Below, piece by piece: positions 25,725 to 28,375 of a stretch of DNA of 64,000 nucleotides; the stretch's first letter is position 1, and the number at the start of each line of letters is the position of its first letter. The translations under genes were made by a program, and so were the position numbers. The stretch covers positions 5,331-69,330 of the forward strand of contig CAWKEI010000016.1 in NCBI GenBank assembly GCA_963848695.1, read 5' to 3'. Origin of the DNA: an uncultured Acidobacteriota bacterium (GTDB lineage: Bacteria > Actinomycetota > Acidimicrobiia > Spongiisociales > ZC4RG35). Below the pieces are notes generated by a model. The model worked only from the letters and a program-made list of their open reading frames with translations. It did no database searches and had not been told where the DNA came from.

Positions 25725-26506
25725 CGGTCGACATCGCCCTTCCGATTGGCTCGGATGGCGGTCGCCTCGGCCATGAGCAGGTATTGGTCTCCCACCGCTT
25801 CCGAGACTCGACGCGCCGCAGCGAGCTGGCCGGCCACGGTAGAGATGTCGCCCCTTGCAATCGGCCCGGTGAGAGGAGTTACGGATTCGATCTCGTAGAC
25901 GTTCGCCACCGCCTGTTCTACGAGGGGCCGGGCGACGACGGGGTCGATCCGAGCGTCCTCCATCAGGTCTCCTGCCGTGGCCAGGGCGGTGATGACGAAA
26001 TTCGATGCAGCGGAGGCGGCAGCGTGATAGGAAGGGCGCGCTTCGTCACTCAGCGGGAAAGGCTTCATGCCGAGCGATTCGGCCAACACGGAGAGGCTCG
26101 TGATGACCTCGGTGCTCCCACCAATCCCCACAAAGGCTCCAGCGAGCGCAGCCGCGCCTCGCTCCGGGTCGGGGAGGGTCTGGAGTGGGTGAAATCCACC
26201 GGTGGCCACGCCGGAGCGGGCAAGGCCATCGAGGGCGGTGACCGGGGTGAAGCCGGACGTGTGTGCCGCCATCCCAACCGAGCGCGCGTGTGGCGCCAGC
26301 CGGCTCGACACCTCCTCGATCGCATCGTCACGCACCGCGATGAGCAGGAGATCGGACGCGGGCAAGACTTGGTCCCAGTCGAGAACGGGCCCATACCGGC
26401 TGTCCCGGGAACGGGAGAGGACGCCGACTATCTCGTGACCCGAGCGGGCAGCGGCAAGGGCAATCGAACCTCCGGCCCTTCCCGGGCCGACAATCGTCAA
26501 TCTCAC
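25715..26506 (-). CDS. Rossmann-like/DUF2520 oxidoreductase (PanG-type ketopantoate reductase candidate)
   Basis: GPGRAG, AVRDDAI, HTSG, FHPLQT, YHAAA..ASN, LTGPIARGD; adjacent to panC. Confidence 0.85.
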   Translation of the reverse strand: MRLTIVGPGRAGGSIALAAARSGHEIVGVLSRSRDSRYGPVLDWDQVLPASDLLLIAVRDDAIEEVSSRLAPHARSVGMAAHTSGFTPVTALDGLARSGVATGGFHPLQTLPDPERGAAALAGAFVGIGGSTEVITSLSVLAESLGMKPFPLSDEARPSYHAAASAASNFVITALATAGDLMEDARIDPVVARPLVEQAVANVYEIESVTPLTGPIARGDISTVAGQLAAARRVSEAVGDQYLLMAEATAIRANRKGDVDRWS

Positions 26507-26555
26507 AGGGTTACCTCGGCCGACTGGCGGCGAGGCTAGCTAGCACCCCGTGACG

Positions 26556-26897
26556 TCAGACCTGGTCTTCCAACTGATTGGGGGTGATGACGGGCCAGTT
26601 CGAGTCCAACTCAGACTTCATCTCGTGATAGTCGTCCCGTCGCTTCCAGAACTTGGTCTTCCAGATCTTGAATCGCCGCCGGCTCGACTCTTGCGGCTCG
26701 GCGAGCGGGGTCGCGTGGTTGTCCCCTGTGCCCCTGACCTCGGGCACGACGACCTCGTCCGGATCGTCTGTCATGTGCAAAACCTGATGGGTGGAGTGCC
26801 GCACGGCGCGGTGTTGTTGCTTGCGCTCCTGGCGGTTTGGGCGGCCGTCGTTGTATCCGGGGATTTCCTGGCGATGCTCTCGCGACCGTTTTGCCAT
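26556..26897 (-). CDS. Hypothetical 113-aa protein with basic segments
   Basis: Strong SD AGGAGG 10 nt upstream; Arg/His-rich N-terminus and RRRFKIWKTKFWKRR motif. Confidence 0.7.
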   Translation of the reverse strand: MAKRSREHRQEIPGYNDGRPNRQERKQQHRAVRHSTHQVLHMTDDPDEVVVPEVRGTGDNHATPLAEPQESSRRRFKIWKTKFWKRRDDYHEMKSELDSNWPVITPNQLEDQV

Positions 26898-26916
26898 CTA
26901 GATCGTTCCTCCTGTC

Positions 26917-26967
26917 TCAGACGCTGCTCGGTGTCCGGACCGGAGGAGGGCCGCGGCCGCTTCCCAT
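26917..26967 (-). promoter_or_regulatory. Putative leaderless leader peptide MGSGRGPPPVRTPSSV with an anti-SD (translational attenuator)
   Basis: TG-C-TAGCTT extended -10 lies 6 nt before the ATG; Pro codons CCT CCT are complementary to the downstream AGGAGG. Confidence 0.55.
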
Positions 26968-27006
26968 GCGCCGAAGCTAGCACGGTTGGTCGGCTCCGCG
27001 CCAGGG

Positions 27007-27528
27007 TCATTCGACCCGGTTCGGGGCCGGCTCCGATTCGTCCTCCAGCCAGTTCGTTGCCACCAACAAGATTTCCTGATCCTGGACCAGCTCCTTGGCC
27101 ATGTCCGCCGAGAGACCCTCCCCCACCATTGCTTCGGGCCAGACCTCACTCAGCGGATCGAGCACGAAGCGGCGCTCGGCGGCCCGAGGATGCGGAATCT
27201 GTAGCTCCGGCGTGTCTATCGGCCCGTCATCCATGGCGACGATGTCGAGATCGAGGGTCCGCGGCCCCCACCGCATCTCGCGGACCCGGCCATGAGCGTC
27301 CTCGATCTCGTGCAACCGACCGAGGAGCCCCGCCGGGGACAGATTGGAGTCGAGGAGAACGACCGCATTGAGGTAGGAGTCCTGGGCGGGCCCCCCGATC
27401 GGCGCCGTCTCATACAGAGCGGATACTTCCACAATCACACCCGCCTTCCGTAGATCCCCGATTGCCCCTCGAAGGTGGGCGGCCCGGGCTCCGAGGTTGG
27501 AGCCGAGGGCGATGGCGAACCGGGTCAT
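27007..27528 (-). CDS. folK: 6-hydroxymethyl-7,8-dihydropterin pyrophosphokinase
   Basis: IALGSNLG, YETAP, YLNAV, RWGPRTLDLDI, IPHPR..ERRFVL. Confidence 0.97.
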   Translation of the reverse strand: MTRFAIALGSNLGARAAHLRGAIGDLRKAGVIVEVSALYETAPIGGPAQDSYLNAVVLLDSNLSPAGLLGRLHEIEDAHGRVREMRWGPRTLDLDIVAMDDGPIDTPELQIPHPRAAERRFVLDPLSEVWPEAMVGEGLSADMAKELVQDQEILLVATNWLEDESEPAPNRVE

Positions 27529-27884
27529 CGGGAACGATCGACGGTCACCGCCACGTCCTCGAATACCAGTGGGATCGGAGCCTCCGGCTTGTGGACGGTC
27601 ACGATCACCCGTTCGACGAGAGGCCGGGTGAGAACCATCCGGGCGATTCGGTCGGCCACGGATTCGATCAAATCGTGACTCTCACCCTCCACGAGGTCAT
27701 GTGTGTCCTGGGCGAGGCTTCCGTAATCGACCGTGTCGGCGAGGTCGTCCGACGCGCCGGCTCCGGCCAGGTCCAGGAACAACTCGAGATCGATTCGGAA
27801 GATTTGAGCTACTTGCTTCTCTTCACCGAGCACCCCGTGCCGGGCCAGCACCTCTATGCCTGTGATCTCGATCCGATCGGTCAC
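27525..27884 (-). CDS. folB: Dihydroneopterin aldolase
   Basis: HGV..EE...Q.F.ID, SDDLADTVDYG, LIESVA, VHKPEAPI. Confidence 0.96.
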   Translation of the reverse strand: MTDRIEITGIEVLARHGVLGEEKQVAQIFRIDLELFLDLAGAGASDDLADTVDYGSLAQDTHDLVEGESHDLIESVADRIARMVLTRPLVERVIVTVHKPEAPIPLVFEDVAVTVDRSR

Positions 27885-28375
27885 GAGGCCGCGGATGCCG
27901 GGATGAGCGAGCGACCCTCCGGCCCCAACGCCCGTCCCAGAATCTGCTGTATCACCGCCAGGGCCAGGATCGGGTCCTTCACCAGCCCCGAATCGACCAG
28001 GAAACCGCCGAGCAGCCCCCCAACCGTGTCATCGATGGCTTCTCGATGCACGAGAACCCGTGACCTTTTCTTGGCTGTCGCCTTGCTCAGGGTCAGGAAG
28101 AACTCTTCAACGTCCTGATTGCTGAGGTCGGGCCCGATGGGGACCGAGTATGTTGCGATCCCGGCCTCCCGGTAGGCGAGGAGATTCTGATTGCCAGGAA
28201 GCATCGAGACGACAGTGTTGATCCCCGCCTCCTCGACTAGCCAGGTGATCTCCTCCTCACGACGGACTCGGCGATGCTGGAATCCCGAGCCCCCGACCCG
28301 CTCGGAGACAGCGAGACGATCGGTGATGACCCAGGTGAAACCCCGGGGCTTTAGTCCTGCGACCATTCGTCCCAT
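27881..28375 (-). CDS. Protein-tyrosine/dual-specificity phosphatase-fold protein lacking the catalytic CX5R
   Basis: FTWVI..RLAVSER.GG, GINTVVSML, VLVHRE..D..GG pattern follows the DSP fold; overlaps both folP and folB. Confidence 0.6.
   Translation of the reverse strand: MGRMVAGLKPRGFTWVITDRLAVSERVGGSGFQHRRVRREEEITWLVEEAGINTVVSMLPGNQNLLAYREAGIATYSVPIGPDLSNQDVEEFFLTLSKATAKKRSRVLVHREAIDDTVGGLLGGFLVDSGLVKDPILALAVIQQILGRALGPEGRSLIPASAAS

What the first reader, a model, noticed from the sequence alone, without database searches (positions are those of the whole stretch)
26556..26985. Candidate ribosome-stalling attenuator: leaderless RGPPP peptide controlling an unknown basic protein
Seen: extended -10 TG-C-TAGCTT (26982-74) sits 6 nt before ATG 26967, the same geometry as leaderless genes in this window (44890, 59029, 1344, 38096). 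The uORF is MGSGRGPPPVRTPSSV*. Its first two Pro codons are CCT-CCT (unusual at this GC), giving CCTCCT, exactly complementary to the AGGAGG SD (26913-08) of the 113-aa ORF starting 19 nt after the uORF stop. Established: PPP stalls ribosomes without EF-P, and RAPP/RGPP-like motifs occur in arrest peptides (SecM RAGP, ApdA/ApdP). Inference: a ribosome paused at RGPPP masks the anti-SD and switches on the downstream gene. The product (Arg/His-rich N-terminus, RRRFKIWKTKFWKRR) looks RNA- or ribosome-binding and may be an undescribed rescue, hibernation or anti-stalling factor under feedback control.
Basis: partly seen in the sequence, partly recalled or inferred. Interest (0 to 1): 0.82.

Follow-up and report, generated by a model that had tools for sequence, protein, structure and literature searches.

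The report
Leaderless RGPP stalling mini-ORF before unknown gene
A tiny upstream reading frame that starts at the very 5' end of its mRNA and always encodes Arg-x-Pro-Pro, a known ribosome-stalling motif, is conserved across a whole family of uncultured Acidimicrobiia in front of a conserved small basic protein of unknown function, and probably switches that gene on by freeing its hidden ribosome-binding site.

Summary
On the minus strand, an extended -10 (TGcTAGCTT, 26982-26974) lies 6 nt before ATG 26967. The uORF reads MGSGRGPPPVRTPSSV*. AGGAGG (26913-26908) precedes a 113-aa ORF (26897-26556).

All 88 distinct leaders from 130 related loci have the same design (86 by script, 2 by hand). 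Each has a TANNNT -10 close to a start codon and [R/H]-x-Pro-Pro at residues 4/5-7/8: RGPP 67, RAPP 7, RDPP 5, RSPP 3+2. All four Pro codons are used at both positions. What follows Pro-Pro is free, and in 10 leaders it is a stop. This points to selection on the peptide. The motif spectrum matches published RAPP/RGPP arrest peptides, not generic polyproline.

The SD is predicted to be paired (unpaired probability 0.06, against 0.38 in shuffles). Its partners lie inside the footprint of a ribosome stopped at Pro-Pro. Column-wise covariation is not significant.

The 113-aa protein is conserved but matches no Pfam, NCBIfam, PHROGs or PDB entry.

Verdict: a likely new, minimal, leaderless variant of RAPP-type arrest attenuators. 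There are no experimental data, and the signal it senses is unknown.

The parts
26974..26982 (-). Extended -10 promoter element TGcTAGCTT; its last T lies 6 nt before the uORF ATG, which implies a leaderless transcript
   Evidence: Among 86 related leaders, TANNNT is present in 86/86, the TG extension in 83/86, and the gap to the start is 6 nt in 74/86. No TSS data exist.
26917..26967 (-). uORF of 16 codons plus stop, MGSGRGPPPVRTPSSV*
   Evidence: Only residues 1-8 are conserved among relatives. uORF length ranges from 7 to 131 codons and the stop position is not conserved.
26944..26955 (-). Codons 5-8, CGC GGC CCT CCT = Arg-Gly-Pro-Pro, the candidate arrest core. The predicted stall has Pro7 in the P site and Pro8 in the A site.
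   Evidence: [R/H]xPP is present in 88/88 distinct leaders. The first and second positions of both Pro codons are invariant and the third positions vary freely. The stall geometry is taken from the literature and was not tested here.
26942..26949 (-). Anti-SD (CCUCCUCC), overlapping Pro7, Pro8 and the start of codon 9
   Evidence: In the MFE fold of the window leader, UCCUCC (nt 21-26) pairs with GGAGGA (nt 56-61).
26908..26913 (-). Shine-Dalgarno AGGAGG of the 113-aa gene, 10 nt before its ATG
   Evidence: Predicted unpaired probability is 0.17 in the free leader and 0.84 when the first 33 nt are held by a stalled ribosome (L001).
26556..26897 (-). 113-aa basic protein (pI 9.1) of unknown family, with invariant motif W-K-T-K-F-W-K-R-R
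   Evidence: 318 homologues at E<=0.01. Found in 31/36 genomes of the same family. No Pfam, NCBIfam, PHROGs or PDB match.

Best explanation
This is a translational attenuator built from a minimal, leaderless arrest peptide.

Proposed mechanism:
1. Transcription starts at or next to the A of ATG 26967, so a 70S ribosome initiates directly on the uORF.
2. [quoted passage not shown]
3. In the free mRNA, the SD of the 113-aa gene is base-paired to a CCUCC-type anti-SD that lies at or up to about 16 nt after the Pro-Pro codons.
4. The arrested ribosome holds that stretch in its mRNA channel. The SD, about 20 nt beyond its leading edge, becomes free and the 113-aa gene is translated.
5. Output therefore depends on how often the uORF is initiated and how long the arrest lasts.

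Shown here: conservation of the uORF, the motif, the promoter geometry and the SD/anti-SD complementarity.

Inferred: the transcription start, the arrest itself, the unmasking of the SD, and any signal that tunes the arrest. With a 7-residue nascent chain, a pulling force from secretion is excluded. Candidate inputs are factors acting at the peptidyl-transferase centre, such as ABCF ATPases or EF-P, or the rate of leaderless initiation. The function of the 113-aa product is unknown.
For: (1) uORF conservation. Of 140 loci held, 130 had the gene plus at least 150 nt upstream, giving 88 distinct leaders. 86 carry a uORF with [R/H]xPP at residues 4/5-7/8. The other two carry the same promoter and a uORF with a 20-codon in-frame insertion and G-R-S-P-P at residues 24-28.

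(2) Selection on the peptide.
- Arg is encoded by CGC 66, CGT 11, CGA 4, AGA 2, CGG 1.
- Pro1 is encoded by CCG 31, CCC 22, CCT 18, CCA 15. Pro2 is encoded by CCT 39, CCG 21, CCC 18, CCA 8.
- The alignment shows C19 C20 C22 C23 invariant with free third positions.
- The residue after Pro-Pro is unconstrained: L 19, P 12, stop 10, and others.

(3) Motif spectrum. RGPP 67, RAPP 7, RDPP 5, RSPP 3 (+2), RPPP 2, HVPP 1, HAPP 1. This matches the published arrest-competent or proteome-depleted set RAPP, RGPP, RDPP, RSPP, HGPP. RGPP is reported as the most robust arrest, with the third and fourth residues in the P and A sites.

(4) Leaderless geometry. TANNNT is present in 86/86 leaders, the gap is 6 nt in 74/86, and the TG extension is present in 83/86. 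Four other genes in the window have the same geometry.

(5) SD masking.
- Mean unpaired probability of GGAG is 0.06, against 0.38 in dinucleotide shuffles; 84/86 leaders fall below their shuffle mean.
- 88% of the SD's pairing mass is with bases inside start..P-site+14.
- The unpaired probability rises to 0.58 when that stretch is blocked (a similar result).
- The core GGAG(G/A) pairs are 88-100% canonical, including CG 64 / TA 10 at one position.

(6) Specificity. It is 1 of 835 comparable sites in this genome, and the strict pattern hit 2 of 401 genomes of the phylum, both at this locus.
Against: - No experiment and no TSS mapping exist.
- The RNA-library contigs that could be laid say nothing about 5' ends.
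[quoted passage not shown] Here only 3-4 residues precede the Arg. A different passage cites a study in which minimal RxPP sufficed, so this point is open.
- Column-wise structure tests are weak. RNAalifold on 86 leaders returned no consensus helix. On a 36-leader sub-alignment the helix is 76.5% paired against 74.4% in shuffles (22/500 shuffles as high), with one pair changed on both sides. The SD side is nearly invariant, so covariation has little power.
- The window's own leader is not unusually stable (MFE -32.1, z = -0.88).
- Four leaders deviate from the R-small-P-P form (RPPP x2, HVPP, HAPP).
- Distant homologues of the protein in other Acidimicrobiia families have no such uORF.
Confidence: 0.62

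Rival explanations
1. EF-P-responsive polyproline pause. Pro-Pro(-Pro) causes a pause that EF-P normally resolves, so the uORF reports EF-P or prolyl-tRNA capacity rather than acting as a RAPP-type arrest.
For: - Pro-Pro is invariant.
- With only 3-4 residues before the Arg, the arrest may be weaker than in full-length RAPP peptides and so open to EF-P (an inference).
- Di-prolyl pauses depend on flanking residues.
Against: - The residue after Pro-Pro is free, and Pro follows in only 12/86 leaders.
- The strongly constrained positions are Arg two residues before the first Pro (84/86 Arg, 2 His) and a small residue immediately before it. These define the RAPP class.
- RAPP/RGPP arrest is reported as refractory to EF-P.
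Confidence: 0.13
2. Plain translational coupling. Any ribosome translating the uORF melts the hairpin or terminates next to the main ATG and reinitiates. No arrest is needed, and R-x-P-P is conserved for another reason.
For: The uORF stop abuts the main ATG in 20 of 86 leaders and overlaps the main ORF in 15. The SD is predicted to be masked.
Against: - The stop position is not conserved: in 51 of 86 leaders the uORF ends upstream of the main ATG, and 10 uORFs end directly after Pro-Pro, 43-52 nt before it in those tabulated.
- This model does not explain strict conservation of R-x-P-P with synonymous codon turnover.
Confidence: 0.1
3. An untranslated nucleic-acid element: an operator for a DNA-binding regulator (GGCCGCGGCC is a palindrome) or an RNA thermometer or other structured leader.
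For: Within the genus the first 24 nt are nearly identical at the nucleotide level. The SD-masking hairpin could work alone.
Against: - Across genera the nucleotides change while the residues stay: four Arg codon types, all four Pro codons, and GGC/GGA/GGT/GCT/GCC/AGC/GAC at position x.
- The variation has three-base periodicity.
- A 60-nt insertion kept the frame.
- No Rfam family matches; the best hits have E = 0.3 and 0.97 and lie below gathering scores.
Confidence: 0.06
4. The uORF product is itself a functional micropeptide.
For: The first eight residues are conserved.
Against: Length varies from 7 to 131 residues, with no conservation after residue 8. Several products are only MxxxRxPP.
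Confidence: 0.02

Closest known systems
RAPP/RGPP-containing arrest peptides: ApdA, ApdP, ApcA, CruR, and seven Streptomyces lividans peptides (Fujiwara et al. 2025, PMC12992588; Morici et al. 2024, PMC10951233)
   Same: - The same four-residue core with the same tolerated variants (G/A/S/D at position 2; His variants are known as HGPP).
- Encoded upstream of, and on the same strand as, the controlled gene.
- Present in Actinomycetota.
- Downstream genes can have diverse functions.
   Different: - Known members are annotated proteins, analysed as ORFs under 300 residues, with the motif near the C-terminus and mostly with signal peptides or TM segments. Release is thought to need a pulling force.
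- Here the motif is at residues 5-8 of a leaderless 7-24-codon uORF in most leaders. There is no localisation signal and no tunnel-filling N-terminal module.
- The target is a protein of no known family.
SecM-secA, MifM-yidC2 and Erm leader peptides (translational attenuation by SD unmasking); this item is recalled general knowledge, with SecM RAGP also mentioned
   Same: A ribosome arrested on a leader ORF disrupts an mRNA helix that hides the downstream SD.
   Different: - SecM and MifM sense secretion or insertion through long nascent chains.
- Erm leaders need an antibiotic.
- Here neither can be said to apply, and the leader ORF has no SD of its own.
Leaderless polycysteine short ORFs that attenuate operons in mycobacteria (bioRxiv 10.1101/834739; only the search listing and the start of the abstract were seen)
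   Same: An actinobacterial, leaderless, unannotated short ORF that is the first cistron and controls downstream genes through its own translation.
   Different: Those ORFs sense an amino acid through runs of Cys codons. This one carries a peptidyl-transferase arrest motif and no amino-acid run.

Membership tests
RAPP-like (RxPP) ribosome arrest peptides | Core R-[A/G, small]-P-P (His tolerated at position 1 in HGPP) | tested here: met
   88/88 distinct leaders carry the core. Counts: RGPP 67, RAPP 7, RDPP 5, RSPP 5 including L097/L098, RPPP 2, HVPP 1, HAPP 1.
RAPP-like (RxPP) ribosome arrest peptides | Purifying selection on the peptide, not only on the nucleotides | tested here: met
   All four Pro codons are used at both positions and five Arg codons are used. 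First and second codon positions are invariant and third positions are free. An in-frame 60-nt insertion retains the motif.
RAPP-like (RxPP) ribosome arrest peptides | An adjacent N-terminal region in the exit tunnel that supports the arrest (the two-module architecture) | tested here: not met
   Only 3-4 residues precede the Arg in 86/88 leaders, with Gly directly before Arg in 74/86. The literature is divided on whether the core alone suffices.
RAPP-like (RxPP) ribosome arrest peptides | Motif near the C-terminus of a small secreted or membrane protein with a localisation signal | tested here: not met
   The nascent chain is 7 residues long at the predicted stall, so no signal peptide or TM segment is possible.
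RAPP-like (RxPP) ribosome arrest peptides | [quoted passage not shown] | not testable with these tools
   Needs toeprinting or in vitro translation. The geometry is known.
SD-unmasking translational attenuators | The downstream SD is paired to a segment that the arrested ribosome covers | tested here: inconclusive
   Per-sequence folding supports it: 0.06 unpaired against 0.38 in shuffles, with 88% of partners inside the footprint. There is no RNAalifold consensus, and the covariation test is not significant.
Leaderless short-ORF attenuators of Actinomycetota | Transcript begins at the start codon of the short ORF | tested here: inconclusive
   A -10 lies at the canonical 6-nt distance in 74/86 leaders and there is no room for an SD. 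No TSS data exist. A sigma-70 scan that requires a -35 element found 0 sites.

The most novel reading that the evidence does not exclude
The 113-aa protein is a previously unknown ribosome-associated factor that acts on ribosomes blocked at R-x-P-P or similar peptidyl-transferase-centre arrests. The 7-residue leaderless arrest peptide is its 'monitoring substrate': when the factor's activity is low, the arrest lasts longer, the SD stays open and more factor is made. This would also show that an RxPP core can arrest a ribosome with almost no nascent chain in the tunnel and be released without any pulling force.
Probability: 0.1. Interest if true: 0.9.

Novelty: new variant of a known kind. Interest (0 to 1): 0.62.

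Why it matters
RAPP/RGPP arrest peptides are currently described as two-module sequences. They sit at the end of small secreted or membrane proteins and are released by force on the nascent chain.

A family-wide conserved uORF that places R-G-P-P at residues 5-8 of a leaderless transcript would be the shortest natural member of this class. It cannot use a pulling force. It would therefore make two open questions directly testable:
- Is the core enough to arrest a ribosome?
- What releases such arrests in cells?

Published surveys worked from predicted proteomes, so uORFs of 7-24 codons were probably outside their reach. Mini-uORFs of this type may be an overlooked layer of regulation.

The finding also points to a conserved, unannotated, strongly basic 113-aa protein family in Acidimicrobiia whose tight translational control suggests a dose-sensitive role.

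Tried and rejected
Function of the 113-aa protein. All of the following led nowhere:
- Pfam, NCBIfam and PHROGs.
- PDB profile search at E<=10 (41).
- Search for longer or fused forms (39).
- ESM Atlas, all clusters and named clusters only (40, 68): only 'hypothetical' clusters, best named score 0.81.
- AlphaFold2 on a 23-sequence alignment gave pLDDT 65.1 and pTM 0.33, with one confident helix at residues 22-42 (25). I ran no fold search because the model is too poor.
- Neighbours of distant homologues were uninformative (61).

Rfam gave only two sub-threshold chance-level hits (4).

The sigma-70 scan that requires a -35 element found 0 promoters, and one terminator-like site on the other strand at chance level (5).

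Structure by alignment:
- RNAalifold gave no consensus on 86 leaders (64).
- The count of structure pairs on 36 leaders was not significant (67).
- I keep the helix only on the strength of per-sequence folding against shuffles.

RNA evidence. Four metatranscriptome runs, held as contigs, carry short pieces over 26242-26483, 26548-26744 and 26787-26927, and none over folK (52). Contigs cannot show starts, strand or level, and DNA carry-over is possible, so I draw no conclusion on transcription or on the TSS.

A crude count of RGPP/RAPP against AGPP/AAPP in long ORFs of the genome (44) mixes real and spurious frames, so I did not use it.

The 79-aa ORF at 26771-27010, whose ATG overlaps the folK stop, has no family and runs out of frame across the uORF and the main ORF (2, 3). 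I reject it as a gene.

Supplementary tables of PMC12992588 (lists of RAPP/RGPP ORFs and their downstream genes) were closed. I cannot exclude that related ORFs are listed there.

Literature check for prior description:
- 'RGPP' + 'leaderless' returned 0 papers (53).
- A five-term search on leaderless / upstream ORF / ribosome stalling / Actinobacteria / anti-Shine-Dalgarno listed nothing describing this element among the 15 of 84 papers shown (54).

Full report
WHAT IS THERE

The region lies on the minus strand inside a gene row typical of actinobacteria. The order is folE (29847-29260), folP, a 164-aa ORF without a family, folB, folK (27528-27007), then a 109-nt spacer, a 113-aa ORF (26897-26556), a DUF2520/Rossmann-like gene (26506-25715), panC and lysS.

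- TGcTAGCTT at 26982-26974.
- Six bases, then ATG at 26967.
- MGSGRGPPPVRTPSSV followed by TGA at 26919-26917.
- AGGAGG at 26913-26908.
- ATG at 26897.

CCT is a minority Pro codon here, 14 of 101 in eight neighbouring genes.

THE DOWNSTREAM GENE IS REAL BUT UNNAMED

- The 113-aa protein has 318 homologues at E<=0.01. Every source name among the 120 listed is 'hypothetical protein', and the organism labels given there are Acidimicrobiia or Actinomycetota MAGs.
- It was found in 31 of 36 other genomes of the same family and in 0 of 24 genomes from eleven other families of the order.
- An alignment shows an invariant block W-K-T-K-F-W-K-R-R, a basic N-terminus (MAKRSREHRQEIPGY...) and an acidic, variable middle. 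The pI is 9.1.
- A profile search of 1.84 billion representatives found 71 proteins at E<=0.001, mostly 90-135 aa. The 26 that I retrieved and inspected share WK[TQ]xxWKRR. The one named cluster is from Microthrixaceae.
- No Pfam, NCBIfam, PHROGs or PDB entry matches. No longer form was found. The Atlas gave only hypothetical clusters.
- The AlphaFold2 model is mostly disordered, with pLDDT 65 and one helix at residues 22-42.

THE uORF IS CONSERVED AS A PEPTIDE

I collected 140 loci.
- 130 contain the close subfamily (MA[KRQ]R[SA]...[IT]PGY) with at least 150 nt upstream.
- The other ten are four loci cut too short upstream and six distant homologues.
- The 130 collapse to 88 distinct leaders.

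In 86 of the 88, a script found a uORF with these properties:
- It begins with ATG (84) or GTG (2).
- A TANNNT hexamer lies upstream, with a gap of 6 nt in 74 leaders, 7 in 5, 8 in 6 and 9 in 1. TG precedes the hexamer in 83.
- It encodes [R/H]-x-P-P with the Arg at residue 5 (79 leaders) or residue 4 (7 leaders).

The two leaders that the script missed have the same promoter and start. They carry a 20-codon in-frame insertion followed by G-R-S-P-P-P-A-P-V, which matches relatives that read GRGPPPAPV. All 88 therefore carry the motif.

The codons turn over while the residues stay:
- Arg uses five codons.
- Each Pro position uses all four Pro codons.
- Position x is G (67 leaders), A (7), D (5), S (3, plus 2), P (2), or V/A after His (2).

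In the 86-leader alignment, the only invariant columns in the uORF are the first two bases of the two Pro codons. After Pro-Pro nothing is conserved. The next residue is L 19, P 12, stop 10, E 8, F 7 and others. Lengths run from 7 to 131 codons. The stop lies upstream of the main ATG (51 leaders), abuts it (20) or overlaps it (15).

This pattern is what selection on an N-terminal peptide motif predicts. A DNA operator, an RNA motif or a functional micropeptide would not produce it.

WHICH KIND OF STALLING MOTIF

The conserved unit is not polyproline, because the third Pro of the window's RGPPP is present in only 12 of 86 leaders. The conserved unit is R-small-P-P.

Published findings:
- From the sections of Fujiwara et al. 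2025 that I read (PMC12992588: outline and sections 8, 10, 13, 14, 15): RAPP and RGPP give the most robust arrest, refractory to EF-P, and RGPP is the most excluded tetrapeptide in bacterial proteomes.
- From the same paper: RDPP, RSPP and HGPP are also depleted or arrest-permissive. The arrest occurs with the third and fourth residues in the P and A sites.
- Passages of Morici et al. 2024 (PMC10951233) give the mechanism at the peptidyl-transferase centre.

The variant spectrum seen here (G, A, D, S) matches that set closely.

The known peptides differ in architecture. They are annotated proteins with the motif near the C-terminus, usually with signal or TM segments, and release is thought to need a pulling force. 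Here the chain is seven residues long at the predicted stall. The same paper states that the motif alone is insufficient without an N-terminal module, whereas Morici et al. cite a study in which minimal RxPP sufficed. This is the main biological uncertainty.

THE SD IS MASKED BY A SEGMENT THE STALLED RIBOSOME WOULD HOLD

In the window, UCCUCC (leader nt 21-26, window 26947-26942) pairs with GGAGGA (nt 56-61) in the MFE and centroid folds.

Across 86 leaders:
- The mean unpaired probability of GGAG is 0.06, against 0.38 after dinucleotide shuffling of the region between the start and the SD. 84 of 86 leaders lie below their own shuffle mean.
- 88% of the SD's pairing probability is with bases between the 5' end and 14 nt past the first base of the P-site Pro codon.
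- Forbidding pairing of that stretch raises the unpaired probability to 0.58.

An earlier run on 76 leaders gave 0.12 rising to 0.62.

In other genera the Pro codons are CCG/CCC/CCA and a separate YCCUYCUG lies 8-16 nt downstream. Pro-Pro is therefore not conserved merely because it encodes the anti-SD.

Anchored on the SD, the core pairs are 88-100% canonical. GGAGA leaders carry U where GGAGG leaders carry C (CG 64, TA 10).

Results against the helix must also be stated:
- RNAalifold finds no consensus helix on the sequence alignment, because the anti-SD is out of register between clades.
- On a 36-leader sub-alignment, 76.5% of cells pair against 74.4% in shuffles (22 of 500 shuffles as high). 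Slid controls give 53-63%. Only one pair changed on both sides.
- The window leader is not unusually stable overall (z = -0.88).

The helix rests on conserved complementarity to an invariant SD, not on covariation.

HOW SPECIFIC IS IT

- In this genome, 835 sites have TANNNT, 5-8 nt and ATG/GTG. One of them encodes R[GASDP]PP in its first 12 residues, and that is this uORF.
- A strict DNA pattern for the -10, a 6-nt gap and M-x-x-G-R-G-P-P hit 2 of 401 genomes sampled across the phylum. Both hits are at this locus, and the reversed control pattern gave none. That pattern misses other spacings and variants, so it does not exclude analogous uORFs elsewhere.
- Six loci with distant homologues of the protein, from three other Acidimicrobiia families, show no R-x-P-P uORF.
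- Synteny folB-folK-(an extra gene of about 450 nt in most relatives)-uORF-gene-DUF2520-panC holds in nearly all loci of the close subfamily.

MECHANISM AND CONFIDENCE

I commit to the following at 0.62. A leaderless uORF whose R-x-P-P core arrests the ribosome at codons 7/8 keeps the anti-SD inside the ribosome, frees the SD about 20 nt beyond its leading edge, and so turns on the 113-aa gene.

What modulates the arrest is unknown, and a pulling force is excluded by the chain length. Factors acting at the peptidyl-transferase centre are candidates. ABCF ATPases are one, since a listed paper reports YheS-mediated release of SecM-arrested ribosomes (I saw only its listing and the start of its abstract). 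EF-P is possible if the minimal context weakens the arrest. The frequency of leaderless initiation is another candidate.

Rivals: an EF-P-type polyproline sensor (0.13), plain coupling without arrest (0.10), an untranslated element (0.06) and a micropeptide (0.02).

NOVELTY

The arrest core and the unmasking logic are known. These features are new:
- The minimal leaderless format.
- The absence of any localisation signal or tunnel module.
- The regulated protein family.

Two literature searches found no description. 'RGPP' with 'leaderless' returned 0 papers. Among the 15 of 84 papers listed for the five-term search (leaderless, upstream ORF, ribosome stalling, Actinobacteria, anti-Shine-Dalgarno), none describes it.

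That survey used predicted proteomes, which probably omit ORFs of 7-24 codons; this last point is my inference.

Noticed in passing
window 27000-27006 (just after the folK stop); related loci about 23-27 nt upstream of the -10 hexamer: A short motif, G.CCCT (here tGACCCTgg), is conserved directly after the stop codon of the upstream gene. It ends about 23 nt before the -10 hexamer, which is too far for a standard -35 element. It could be a regulator site or the 3' end of the upstream transcript.
   Followed up: partly
related loci such as L003, L016 and L057-L105, compared with window 27007-26968: In most relatives folK starts about 1060-1100 nt before the 113-aa gene, against 631 nt in the window. 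An extra gene of about 450 nt therefore lies between folK and the uORF in those relatives, and it is missing in this genome and a few others. I did not identify it.
   Followed up: no
window 27881-28375 (-): A 164-aa ORF lies between folP and folB, overlaps both neighbours by a few bases, and has no Pfam match at E<=0.1.
   Followed up: no
L028 / L059 (genome G026, contig C16, 154641-154977): The homologue of the 113-aa gene matches in two overlapping pieces in different frames (residues 1-35 and 18-112). This suggests a frameshift or an assembly error in that genome. Its uORF is intact.
   Followed up: no
window 26950-26959 and 26883-26896 (-): In many predicted folds, the GC-rich palindrome GGCCGCGGCC inside the uORF (codons 4-7) pairs with codons 2-5 of the main ORF (GCC AAA CGG TCG). 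This could be a second contact that a ribosome on the uORF would also break, or it could be chance between GC-rich stretches.
   Followed up: no
L111-L114, L129, L134: Distant relatives of the protein share WK[TQ]xxWKRR and occur in three other Acidimicrobiia families, outside the fol-pan context (one lies next to a fumarase gene). They lack an R-x-P-P uORF. L111 still shows a CCUCCU stretch shortly before its AGGAGG.
   Followed up: partly
window 26771-27010 (-): A 79-aa ORF has an ATG that overlaps the folK stop (ATGA) and runs out of frame through the uORF and into the 113-aa gene. It has no family match and I judge it spurious.
   Followed up: partly
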